A DNA stretch of 22,086 nt from Octopus sinensis (Eukaryota). Under the pieces are notes generated by a model. The model was not told where the DNA came from. It saw only the letters and a program-made list of their open reading frames with translations, and did no database searches. Made by a program: the position numbers and the translations under genes. Positions 4,128-22,086 of this stretch are shown here, in pieces; within the stretch, counting starts at the first letter, position 1; every line of letters begins with the position of its first letter. Location of the stretch: NCBI RefSeq assembly GCF_006345805.1, contig NW_021823612.1, positions 1 through 22,086 on the forward strand, written 5' to 3'.

Positions 4128-4582
4128 TGTTTTTTCGTGTGCAATAGTAACTTATTGAAGTTTAAACTGAGTCATCAAAATCGATTCCATTAAGCCGTGT
4201 GAAAGAAAATTAAGTGCTTCGCAAAGGTCGATTCACGATAAAATAATAGACGATATCTCTAAATGCTAAGAGCTTGCAAAGTTCAATTATTGATAAAAGA
4301 AAAATTCCTATCTATAAATGCCCTTACTATATCACTCTGGAATTAGGTTCTGATCTGTCGAAATGAAAATTAAATGCTGTTTAATTACCACCAATATATG
4401 CATTATTGCGAGTGATATCGGCGCCATTGTCATTATTTTTATCTCGAGTGTTGACATTGTATATCTGTAAAGTGATACTTAAACAATGCCCTCAGTGGAG
4501 TGAGGTACAGCTTTTTGCTGGGGCTGGGGATTGAAGGGCGAAGAGAGAGAGAAAGAGATAAAGGAAATAGATCGATCAATCG

Positions 4583-19054: not shown

Positions 19055-19470
19055 GAGCTGGCAGAGTTGTTAAGCACGGTGGGCGAAATGCTTAGCGGCA
19101 TTTCGTCTGCCGCTACGTTCTGAGTTCAAATTCCACCGAGGTCGACTTTGCCTTTCATCCTTTCGGGGTCGATTAAATAAGTACCGGTTACGCACTGGGG
19201 TCTATATAGTCGACTTAATCCGTTTGTCTGTCCTTGTTTGTCCCTTCTGTGTTTAACTAACCCCTTGCGGGTAGTAAAGAAATAGGTATTTCGTCTGCTG
19301 GTACGTTCTGAGTACAAATTCCACCGAGGTCGACTTTGCTTTTATCCTTCCGGGGTCGATAAATTAAGTACCAGTTACGCACTGGGGTCGATGTAATTGA
19401 CTAAATACTTTTGTCTGTCCTTGTTTGTCCCCTCTGTGTGTTAGCCCCTTGTGGGCAATAAAGAAATAAG
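19055..19470 (+). mobile_element. SINE family B dimer, type-1 tails
   Basis: Full unit to AAAGAAATAGG (19287), then a second unit starting TATTTCGTCTGC and ending GGGCAATAAAGAAATAAG. Confidence 0.9.
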
Positions 19471-19887: not shown

Positions 19888-21016
19888 TTGGGTTGTCTGG
19901 AAAGTTCGTGCCGATTTATAGTAGCTTACTTTTCGACTTATTTTAGAACAGGGTTGAGTCGATAAAACAGGATTTGACTACACCTCCTTTTAGAGCACAG
20001 TTTAAGCTATCTTTTCCTGGAAGTAGGGTTATGTTCTTATAATCTGTGTTAATTCTGTAACTCTTTAAAATAGAGAGATAAGAAAGTTCATTTTCGGCAC
20101 TTGATGCTTTTCTTTTTCCGTAAAGGGAAAAATGCCTCACAAGCAACCAAAGAAATATGCTCAGTTTACGGTGATGTTTCTTTATGCGAAAGAACTGTAC
20201 GGAAGTGGTTCGCGAGGTTCCGAGCGGGAGATTGCAGCCTTATTGATAAATAGCGATCAGGCAGACCATCCACTACAGATGATGACCAAATCAAGTCATT
20301 AATTGAGAATAACTCACATTGCACAACCCGAGAATTGGCAGAAAGCCTCAACCTATCAAAATCCGTCGTTCATGAGCACCTGGTAAAGCTTCGGTACACA
20401 AATCGCTATGATGTTTGGGTGCCACATATGTTGAGAGAGAAGAACCTTTTGGATCGCATTTCCATCTGTGATTCGCTTTATAAACGGAATGAAAACGCGC
20501 CTTTTTTAAAGCAAATTGTGACAGGTGATGAGAGATGGATTATCTACTGAAATGTTCAGAGAAAGCGATCCAGAATTCAGAGAAATCCTCCAGAATTGGC
20601 CAACAGGAAGGGTGTTGTTTTCCAACATGATAATGCAAGACACACGTTTCTTTAAGAACCAGACAAAAATTGCTGCAGCTTGGCTGGAATGTGTTACCCT
20701 GCCCTCCATATTCACCAGATATTTCCACTTGATTGATTGATTGATTGATTCTAGTTTCAGCTCACGAGCTGTGGCCATGCTGGGGCACCGCCATCAGGTT
20801 TCTGCAAAATAGTCTTATTGGTAAAAAATTTCAATTCCTTGGATGACGTAAAAAGATACCTTGATGAATTCTTTGCCATAAAACCACATCAATTGTGGGA
20901 AGAGGTATTATGTGCAACAAAATGGTTCATATTTGGTTGATTAAAAATGTAATGGCAAGTATTTATTGATCTTTGCTTTCCTTTAAAAATCGGCACGAAC
21001 TTTCCGGACAACCCAA
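19888..21016 (+). mobile_element. mariner DNA transposon, non-autonomous (1129 bp)
   Basis: 30-bp TIRs TTGGGTTGTCTGGAAAGTTCGTGCCGATTT and AAATCGGCACGAACTTTCCGGACAACCCAA with 1 mismatch; TA at 19886-19887 and 21017-21018. Confidence 0.97.
20077..20944 (+). pseudogene. mariner transposase pseudogene
   Basis: DKKVHFRHLMLFFFRKGKNA...WFARFRAGD...*RSGRP...WVPHML...IVTGDERW...HDNAR...PPYSPDI...QQNGSYLVD*. It has a TAG stop at 20251, frameshifts, internal deletions and a 65-bp insert at 20729-20793. Confidence 0.95.
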
Positions 21017-21312: not shown

Positions 21313-21546
21313 AGGCAGCGAGCTGGCAGAAACGTTAGCAGGCCGGGCGAAATGCGTAGCCGTATTTCGTCTGTCGTTACATTCTGAGTTCAAATTCCAC
21401 CGAAGTCGACTTTGCCTTTCATCCTTTCGGGGTCGATAAATTAAGTACCAGTTACGCACTGGGGTCGATGTAATCGACTTAATCCGTTTGTCTGTCCTTG
21501 ATGTCTTCTCTGTGTTTAGCCTCGTGTGGGTAGTAAAGAAATAGGT
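21313..21546 (+). mobile_element. SINE family B, full length, type-1 tail
   Basis: Highly similar to 8214-8448. Confidence 0.9.
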
Positions 21547-21589
21547 ATATTTATATATATATGTTATTATTATTATTATTATTATTATT

Positions 21590-21848
21590 GTTTTTACGTA
21601 TTATTTTTGTATTCATATTCGTGTACATCGATCGTCCGTTTTTCTGTCCTTGTTTTGTATACATTCGAAGCTTTCTTTCCCAGGAATCTAATGCGCTTAG
21701 CTCATGTTTTCCTTGGGCTGGCGAGATTGGAGCAATCTCAAGATTATCAGTCGAATTGCGAGGATGATCCGGTTCTTGACTGAAGATTGAAGGCTTCGAT
21801 TTCCGTCCGTGATTTTTGCATCGTCTTCTAAATGAAAGAAGTTCGTCG

Positions 21849-21850
<2 letters not shown>
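21590..21850 (+). mobile_element. T-rich unclassified element abutting (TA)n, architecture like 5945-6420
   Basis: CGATCGTCC and TTTTGTATACAT motifs, a hairpin plus GAA module, CTGAAGA at 21780-21786, then (TA)n. Confidence 0.35.
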
Positions 21851-21898
<48 letters not shown>

Positions 21899-21983
21899 CT
21901 ATATCTAGAAAGAAGCAACAAATGGATTAGTTTTTAGTACAATTGTTTCATACAAAGACAGGCTTTATTAAAAGTTGCAAATA

Positions 21984-22086
21984 TTGCAGCAGATAAAAGA
22001 CATATGAGTTCCCTAAACATCTTAGATGTTTAGGGAACTCATATGTGTTTTAGCTGATGAGTACGGGACACTTTTATCTGCTGCAA
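21984..22086. repeat. long inverted repeat (head-to-head junction)
   Basis: Perfect 23-bp arms at 22000-22022 and 22024-22046 around one T; perfect 16-bp outer arms at 21984-21999 and 22071-22086; 24 extra nt (22047-22070) only in the right arm. Confidence 0.97.
22047..22086 (+). ncRNA. 5' part of a type I hammerhead ribozyme (runs off the window; the 3' part is visible in the inverted copy at 21932-21999, minus strand)
   Basis: TTTTAG-CTGATGA-GTACGGGACA... joined to the inverted copy's ...TGTCTTTGTAT-GAAA-CAATTG-TA-CTAAAA gives stems I, II and III with an intact core. Confidence 0.7.

What the first reader, a model, noticed from the sequence alone, without database searches (positions are those of the whole stretch)
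21905..22086. Complete hammerhead ribozyme split across the arms of a head-to-head palindrome
Seen: the right arm (+) reads TTTTAG-CTGATGA-GTACGGGACA-CTTTTATCTGCTGCAA up to the window end. The left arm (- strand) reads CTTTTATCTGCTGCAA-TATTTGCAACTTTTAATAAAGCC-TGTCTTTGTAT-GAAA-CAATTG-TA-CTAAAA. Overlapping the shared 16 nt gives stem I TTTTAG/CTAAAA, intact CUGAUGA and GAAA, a long stem II (GTACGGGACA/TGTCTTTGTAT with G-U pairs and a bulge), palindromic stem III ACAATTGT and a GUA cleavage site. The left arm lacks exactly the 24 nt carrying CUGAUGA (TTTTAGCTG/TTTTATCTG microhomology), so only one direction could self-cleave. Established: this minimal type I form and inverted terminal segments are hallmarks of Penelope-like elements. 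Inference: a young snap-back insertion next to (TA)n whose transcript would be a long hairpin with a ribozyme-defined end.
Basis: partly seen in the sequence, partly recalled or inferred. Interest (0 to 1): 0.75.

Follow-up and report, generated by a model that had tools for sequence, protein, structure and literature searches.

The report
Two-armed Penelope retrotransposon stump with hammerhead
This is one of many hundred short back-to-back copies of a Penelope-type jumping gene that carries a hammerhead ribozyme motif predicted to cut RNA; the ribozyme only looks split because the assembled sequence stops here, and the regular pairing of one short-ended and one long-ended arm suggests that the enzyme likely copies the RNA onto both cut ends of the target DNA.

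Summary
Observation confirmed; interpretation partly supported. The window is a whole contig, so the ribozyme is cut by the contig end. The parent is a 4.2-4.6 kb Penelope-like element whose ORF has the diagnostic motifs of the Hydra clade (Craig 2021). Insertions sit in (TA)n as two head-to-head arms. Of 81 junctions, 73 join an arm ending 35 nt after the ribozyme cut site (A) to one carrying a 118-nt tail (B); none is A+A or B+B, and one later exception was found. Either arm can be the longer, which fold-back of a single cDNA cannot give, so priming at both DNA ends is likelier. Only the central 23-nt mirror looks like local snap-back. A read-through RNA would bury the ribozyme in duplex, and copies almost never start at the cut site, so a 'ribozyme-defined hairpin' is unsupported. 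Known architecture; new family with a long helix II and a long tail. The scan noted this two-ended pattern before on other DNA. Cleavage is untested.

The parts
21849..21904 (.). (TA)n target microsatellite
   Evidence: TA repeats flank both ends in 64 of 73 A+B insertions and one end in the other 9
21907..21999 (-). Inverted, 5'-truncated pLTR arm ending at fixed site A (about 35 nt after the ribozyme cut site); truncated inside helix II
   Evidence: 98% to reference copy L048, ref 4206-4300; truncation within 1 nt of the same point in L002, L014 and L092
21932..21960 (-). 3' half of the hammerhead motif: helix II 3' strand, GAAA box, palindromic stem III, GUA, stem I 3' strand
22000..22022 (-). 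23-nt inverted copy of the start of the right arm (likely local snap-back filler at the junction)
   Evidence: perfect mirror of 22024-22046; carries a variant 20-mer found only here, once per strand, in the whole assembly
22024..22086 (+). Direct pLTR arm, 5'-truncated about 30 nt before the CUGAUGA box; cut by the contig end; predicted to go on about 200 nt through the ribozyme and the 118-nt tail to site B and (TA)n
   Evidence: 94% to ref 4156-4221; continuation inferred from 73 of 81 junctions
22048..22070 (+). 5' half of the hammerhead motif: stem I 5' strand, CUGAUGA box, helix II 5' strand

Best explanation
The feature is a 5'-truncated, two-armed insertion of a Penelope-like retrotransposon with Hydra-clade motifs in a (TA)n repeat, and it was likely made by reverse transcription primed from both ends of the cut target at two fixed internal sites of the element RNA. 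Shown: the family (unit 4.2-4.6 kb, one ORF of about 940 codons with RT, Asn-rich linker, CxCx5C finger and GIY-YIG domain; hammerhead motif 210 nt before the start codon), the two end sites A (cut site +35) and B (about +153), the near-strict A+B pairing, independent truncation of the arms, and junctions with microhomology or templated filler. Inferred: the endonuclease cuts both strands of (TA)n; one 3' end primes at A and the other at B on unspliced, uncleaved sense RNA that runs on into the ORF; the two cDNAs stop at unrelated points and are joined by short homology or template jumps. In this copy the B cDNA likely folded back for 23 nt and then jumped to the A cDNA through the 8-of-9 nt repeat, which gives the apparent 24-nt deletion. 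The ribozyme is predicted to be weak as a monomer and to need a dimer through its palindromic stem III, or protein help; in the head-to-head copy it would be buried in duplex RNA, so this locus is most likely an inert by-product.
For: Family and ORF: (RWK, DKT, LYRDD, CxCx5C, VIYKC..YIG, CxxC, CxH in order in tandem copies L103, L203, L205; L204 lacks the exact LYRDD match), against the Hydra definition in PMC8557442 section 11. Orientation: of 90 core matches listed on contig C1, neighbours under 10 kb apart were head-to-head 23 times, tandem 4 times, tail-to-tail never. End pairing: 73 of 81 distinct junctions A+B, 0 A+A, 0 B+B, 8 unclassified (after dropping 6 duplicate rows of the 87); 27 of 28 in loci fetched by patterns blind to end type. 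Arm lengths in 52 young A+B insertions: A longer 23, B longer 17, within 10 nt 12. Junctions in 51 young copies: microhomology 18, blunt 4, filler of 1-7 nt 17, filler of 8 nt or more 12 (counted). Both sites are internal: tandem copies read through A and B into the ORF. In vitro precedent: Poseidon_Ac cuts and extends both strands, starts at two internal sites that bound the tail, and uses uncleaved RNA (PMC11167929). Ribozyme: 93.7% of cells paired and 7 of 47 pairs changed on both sides over 18 copies, among them one in helix II and one in the stem III palindrome; monomer fold 2.0-5.4 kcal/mol above the minimum in 6 of 6 variants.
Against: The mechanism is read from insertion anatomy only. 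Pairing is not absolute: L248 joins a B arm to an arm that runs 43 nt past A before unrelated sequence cuts it, and L126, L140, L252, L253, L258, L259 show one arm with no partner next to it. Genome-wide pattern counts are 341 A ends and 203 read-throughs into the tail, not 1:1, although the two patterns differ in length and subfamily reach. Much of the junction sample came from queries that contain one end. Clade membership rests on motifs and not on a tree; Pfam gave only RVT_1 at E 0.0013, under its cut-off, and no GIY-YIG hit. No copy with a fully open ORF was seen. The covariation test does not control for relatedness. The centre of this copy is unconfirmed by other data.
Confidence: 0.75

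Rival explanations
1. Self-priming or snap-back of one strand makes the whole palindrome (the first reader; also the antisense self-priming hypothesis of Arkhipova et al. 2013).
For: This copy has a perfect 23-nt mirror with a private variant on both sides. 12 of 52 insertions have arms that start within 10 nt of each other. Arms share variants: 23 private variants on both arms against 61 on one arm, in 43 insertions. PMC3846280 (passages) reads junction palindromes this way.
Against: A strand folded on itself cannot copy more than it holds: the tail-less arm is the longer one in 23 of 52 cases, often by 1-3 kb (L044, L050, L216), and a template that ends at A cannot supply the tail. It also does not explain a second fixed end at (TA)n. 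Shared variants are expected as well from one RNA or one source locus, and 15 of the 23 come from three copies of thinly sampled subfamilies.
Confidence: 0.12
2. The centre of this particular palindrome is a read or consensus artefact at a contig end, although the family architecture is real.
For: The contig ends 63 nt past the centre; the copy has several private differences in 180 nt; no contig of four public runs covered 22005-22032 and none showed the 24-nt joint.
Against: A fold-back read would mirror the left arm, yet the right arm holds 24 nt of true family sequence that the left lacks. Similar templated fillers occur at mid-chromosome copies (L020, L123, L136, L198). The runs laid may be other individuals or species, and their contigs drop records.
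Confidence: 0.08
3. The locus works as a source of a long hairpin RNA whose end is set by one-directional ribozyme cleavage.
For: A read-through transcript would fold into a long hairpin; 18 of 52 insertions have a complete motif in only one arm.
Against: The antisense arm pairs with the GAAA box, cut site and stem I 3' strand (analogue L002). No promoter or transcript was shown. Arms that begin exactly at the cut site: 2 clear and 1 ambiguous among the 4 matches in the genome.
Confidence: 0.03
4. The two arms are separate insertions that happened to land in the same (TA)n, or were joined later by recombination.
For: The family strongly prefers (TA)n; single-armed copies exist.
Against: Separate insertions would give all orientations and end pairs and leave TA between the arms; found were 23 head-to-head against 0 tail-to-tail, 73 A+B against 0 A+A and 0 B+B, and direct arm-to-arm junctions.
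Confidence: 0.02

Closest known systems
Hydra clade of C-terminal EN+ Penelope-like elements (Craig et al. 2021, PMC8557442; section 11, passages, and supplement part 2 and search hits seen), e.g. Penelope-13_HM and Hydra-1_Obim
   Same: RWK, DKT, CxCx5C, CxxC and CxH motifs, C-terminal GIY-YIG, (TA)n targets, type I hammerhead near the 3' end. Penelope-13_HM is listed with a 5'-truncated inverted copy, a hammerhead on both strands and the same G-U pair closing helix II.
   Different: Unit 4.2-4.6 kb against 'generally under 3 kb'; long Asn-rich linker; helix II domain of 60 nt with an inner hairpin against loops of 3-10 nt in the listed Hydra motifs; tail 118-119 nt against 30-40 bp. By eye, protein start and ribozyme differ from Hydra-1_Obim as printed in the supplement, so it is another family.
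Poseidon_Ac of the green anole, in vitro (Frangieh et al. 2024, PMC11167929; parts 1-2 of 4 read: main text and start of methods)
   Same: Two internal RT start sites that bound the tail; AT-rich target; both strands cut and extended; ribozyme not needed for insertion and silent without protein.
   Different: Other clade; its sites lie inside the ORF and about 30-40 nt apart, here both lie upstream of the start codon and 118 nt apart. In the parts read, the paper found no strand difference in start site and does not report one-of-each pairing.
Minimal PLE hammerheads (Cervera and De la Pena 2014, PMC4209133; parts 1-2 of 4 read)
   Same: Type I topology, short palindromic helix III suited to dimers, motifs found close together on opposite strands, low predicted monomer activity.
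   Different: G-U or A-U in place of the conserved G10.1-C11.1 pair, no extra base after A9, far longer helix II.
Adineta vaga Penelope insertions (Arkhipova et al. 2013, PMC3846280; passages seen)
   Same: [quoted passage not shown]
   Different: Clear 8-10 bp target duplications there, not discernible in (TA)n here; the authors favour self-priming, which the arm lengths here do not fit.

Membership tests
EN+ Penelope-like element | Single ORF with RT and C-terminal GIY-YIG endonuclease linked to the repeat | tested here: met
   (motifs in order; all whole copies seen are broken by stops or frameshifts); RVT_1 E 0.0013, below cut-off; Atlas look-alikes at 0.91-0.98, several with RVT_1. GIY-YIG called from motifs, no Pfam hit
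EN+ Penelope-like element | Tandem or partial-tandem units forming pLTRs | tested here: met
   L103, L203, L204, L205: two ribozyme motifs 4199-4627 nt apart around the ORF
EN+ Penelope-like element | Inverted 5'-truncated copy and a tail at one end | tested here: met
   73 of 81 junctions; tail 118-119 nt, longer than the 30-40 bp described
EN+ Penelope-like element | Target-site duplication | tested here: inconclusive
   both flanks are TA repeats
Hydra clade | RWK motif and DKT in place of DKG | tested here: met
Hydra clade | CxCx5C linker, CxxC and CxH around the catalytic E and N, no CCHH | tested here: met
   CxCx5C, CxxC and CxH found in 4 of 4 tandem copies with a whole ORF; absence of CCHH judged by eye
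Hydra clade | (TA)n insertion preference | tested here: met
   64 of 73 both sides, 9 one side
Hydra clade | Length generally under 3 kb | tested here: not met
   4.2-4.6 kb; a descriptive trait in the paper ('generally'), not a diagnostic one
Hydra clade | Placement in the RT phylogeny | not tested
   reference proteins were seen only as supplement text; no tree was built
Neptune / Nematis clades | CX2-5CxxC linker finger | tested here: not met
   linker is CxCx5C (definitions)
Naiad / Chlamys | N-terminal endonuclease | tested here: not met
   endonuclease motifs are C-terminal
Type I hammerhead ribozyme | CUGANGA and GAAA boxes and NUH site, with helices I-III | tested here: met
   stem I 5-6 bp in all four subfamilies
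Type I hammerhead ribozyme | G10.1-C11.1 pair | tested here: not met
   G-U in 14 and A-U in 4 of 18; G-U and U-U also stand in published Hydra motifs
Type I hammerhead ribozyme | Monomer folds into the active shape | tested here: not met
   z -0.24 and another minimum fold; ensemble share 0.0001-0.003 in 6 of 6; prediction only, and as expected for dimer-type motifs
Type I hammerhead ribozyme | Self-cleavage | not testable with these tools
   needs an assay
Non-LTR retrozyme | Tandem non-coding units, each with a ribozyme | tested here: not met
   this locus is head-to-head and belongs to a coding element (definition in bioRxiv 10.64898/2026.07.22.740005, part 1 of 5 read)

The most novel reading that the evidence does not exclude
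The Penelope enzyme acts as an asymmetric dimer that primes both ends of a cut TA repeat on one uncleaved RNA, one active site at A and the other at B 118 nt downstream, each placed by a hairpin just behind it. This would account for the one-sided tail and the inverted pLTR of the whole class and replace the self-priming model; this family, with many hundred young copies, an unusually long tail and a 60-nt helix II hammerhead, would be a ready test case.
Probability: 0.4. Interest if true: 0.7.

Novelty: new member of a known kind. Interest (0 to 1): 0.38.

Why it matters
The locus itself is a dead stump. The family matters because the way Penelope-like elements, the sister group of telomerase, build their inverted ends and one-sided tail is still open. 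The near-strict pairing of one A and one B end, with either arm the longer, argues against the published self-priming idea and gives a concrete in vitro test. The long-helix-II hammerhead widens the known shape range of Hydra ribozymes; Rfam gave no hit on the halves in the window.

Tried and rejected
Reading past 22086: not possible, the contig ends; no second assembled copy of the locus by a flank search (a repeat, best others 91%, 40 of 1880 candidates scored) or by an exact 27-mer. Public runs: all holders are contigs; the first laying was swamped by the flanking repeat, the second showed no cover of 22005-22032 and no 24-nt joint in four runs, which proves nothing either way; expression and small RNAs could not be judged. 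Neptune, my first guess, was dropped on the linker and DKT/RWK motifs. Ribozyme-cut RNA as main template: only 2 clear starts at the cut site among 4 matches, with other starts spread over neighbouring positions; starts masked by a chance A are not counted. Twin-hairpin lead from earlier notes: the hairpin behind A is supported (3 of 9 pairs changed on both sides; -10 to -15 kcal/mol), the one behind B is weak (-2.8 to -4.0) and the two stretches are not significantly alike (181-492 of 2000 shuffles scored as high). One RNA against two RNAs: arm variant sharing does not decide it. The first ribozyme descriptor missed the family through lazy matching and was redone. One search opened an unrelated paper under an id I misremembered; the 2017 paper on dimeric PLE hammerheads (Lunse et al.) is recalled only, not read. 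Paper searches found no description of this family or of one-of-each end pairing; subscription papers and Repbase were not searched, and bioRxiv supplements are closed. No structure, complex or large homologue search was run.

Full report
1. Observation. The + strand carries stem I, the CUGAUGA box and the start of helix II at 22048-22086; the - strand carries the rest of helix II, the GAAA box, a palindromic stem III, a GUA site and the stem I partner at 21960-21932. The window is the whole contig G000:C83, so the right arm is cut by the assembly. The stretch is a dispersed repeat: 125 matches from 40 scored of 1399 candidates, 1459 exact matches to the 5' core and 652 to the 3' core, reversed controls 0. 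Rfam found no hammerhead in the window.

2. The parent element. Walking upstream from the ribozyme in longer copies led to one ORF. Four natural tandem copies give a unit of 4199-4627 nt, a start codon 210-211 nt after the ribozyme cut site, an ORF of about 2.8 kb and a 3' region of 1.2-1.5 kb. The motifs RWK, DKT, LYRDD, CxCx5C, VIYKC..YIG, CxxC and CxH come in order (L204 lacks the exact LYRDD match). RWK, DKT, CxCx5C, CxxC and CxH are the diagnostic marks of the Hydra clade in Craig et al. 2021 (PMC8557442 section 11), with (TA)n targeting. Pfam gave only a weak RVT_1 match (E 0.0013; nothing), and the ESM Atlas returned look-alikes at 0.91-0.98, several with RVT_1. No tree was built, and every whole copy seen is broken. 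By eye the family differs from Hydra-1_Obim as printed in the supplement.

3. Insertion anatomy. Among 90 core matches listed on contig C1, neighbours under 10 kb apart were head-to-head 23 times, tandem 4 times and never tail-to-tail. Mapping all loci to one natural copy gave 87 junction rows, 81 after dropping 6 duplicates. Arms end at one of two sites: A, about 35 nt after the cut site, or B, 118-119 nt further on. 73 of 81 junctions join A to B, none A to A or B to B, and 8 were unclassified (the window among them); four of these are A+B on longer stretches or by a variant end (L003, L011, L016, L166). In loci fetched by patterns blind to the end type the count is 27 of 28. Against this: one targeted exception (L248), six single-armed copies, and genome counts of 341 A ends and 203 tail read-throughs from patterns that are not strictly comparable. 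TA repeats flank both ends in 64 of 73. In 52 young A+B insertions the A arm reaches further 5' in 23, the B arm in 17, and 12 are within 10 nt. Junctions of 51 young copies show microhomology (18), blunt joins (4), short filler (17) or filler of 8 nt or more (12), several plainly copied from nearby sequence. Tandem copies read through both sites into the ORF, so both are internal to the RNA.

4. This copy. The left arm is an A arm truncated inside helix II, within 1 nt of the point used in L002, L014 and L092. Then comes a 23-nt perfect mirror of the start of the right arm bearing a variant found nowhere else in the assembly. A plain fold-back read is unlikely because the right arm holds family sequence that the left lacks, but four public runs did not cover the centre, so the locus-specific junction is unconfirmed.

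5. The ribozyme. Over 18 copies from four subfamilies the core is invariant, 93.7% of cells pair and 7 of 47 pairs change on both sides, one in helix II and one that keeps the stem III palindrome (relatedness not controlled; three of the seven lie in the hairpin behind site A, outside the ribozyme). Helix II spans 60 nt with an inner hairpin, against loops of 3-10 nt in the published Hydra table, which also has G-U and U-U at the base of helix II. The monomer is not predicted to fold as a hammerhead (z -0.24; 2.0-5.4 kcal/mol above the minimum in 6 of 6), while the palindrome can form an 8-bp duplex between two copies, as described for PLE motifs that work poorly and as dimers (PMC4209133, parts 1-2). 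In a read-through transcript of the nearest analogue the inter-arm duplex wins by about 95 kcal/mol. Arms that start exactly at the cut site are rare: 2 clear, 1 ambiguous and 1 substitution among 4 genome matches. So cut RNA is not the usual template, in line with PMC11167929.

6. Mechanism. Inferred: the endonuclease cuts both strands of (TA)n, each 3' end primes reverse transcription, one at A and one at B, and the two cDNAs are joined after independent truncation. The strict one-of-each rule is most easily met if both primers use one RNA held by an asymmetric dimer; arm variants fit this but do not prove it. A conserved hairpin lies about 9 nt behind A; its counterpart behind B is weak and not significantly similar.

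7. What is known. Hammerheads in pLTRs, inverted 5'-truncated copies, the one-sided tail and two internal start sites are all published. Seven paper searches found no account of this family or of a counted one-of-each rule. Earlier notes of this scan report the same two-ended pattern in other genomes and in other repeats of this genome; they are unchecked AI notes, and my count came before I looked.

8. Verdict. Real, and ordinary in kind: a new Hydra-type family with a long tail and a long helix II. Interest 0.38, carried by the testable end-pairing rule and not by this locus.

Noticed in passing
L003, L009, L012, L018, L057, L090, L102, L139, L166, L186: Hammerhead motifs of other, unrelated families in the flanks, nearly all with a palindromic stem III and many with a helix II domain of 25-70 nt; long helix II seems common in this genome.
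   Followed up: no
G000:C5:18602210-18603685: Four copies of the tail at spacings of 344, 679 and 342 nt: possibly a short tandem, retrozyme-like derivative of this family.
   Followed up: no
L013/L017, L113/L114, L163/L164: Whole two-armed insertions duplicated in tandem (about 810, 390 and 400 nt); real duplication or assembly effect not decided.
   Followed up: no
L046:4710-5753 (-), L052:7527-7970 (-), L058:8663-10000 (+), L048:3-668 (-): Pieces of other Penelope-like ORFs near the copies; the first three look Hydra-like, the last has a CxxxxCxxC finger (Neptune-type label from the definition, by eye).
   Followed up: no
family tail, alignment A1 columns 202-234: A third long hairpin just before site B; 88% of cells paired, little covariation.
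   Followed up: partly
family, ref 4193-4225: 15 of 52 A arms are truncated inside helix II, and 7 of 52 B arms start within 12 nt of the CUGAUGA box; the sample is biased by the queries and no null was run.
   Followed up: partly
family ORF, e.g. L090:4039-6180: Long Asn-rich stretches between RT thumb and endonuclease, as described for Adineta Penelope elements (PMC3846280).
   Followed up: no
window 20254-20900: Broken mariner/Tc1-like transposase remnant (label recalled from the motifs, not searched).
   Followed up: no
window 21564-21835; 19100-19468 and 21314-21500: Two other abundant dispersed repeats directly left of the (TA)n: a 270-nt element (1880 candidates) and a 187-nt SINE-like unit.
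   Followed up: partly
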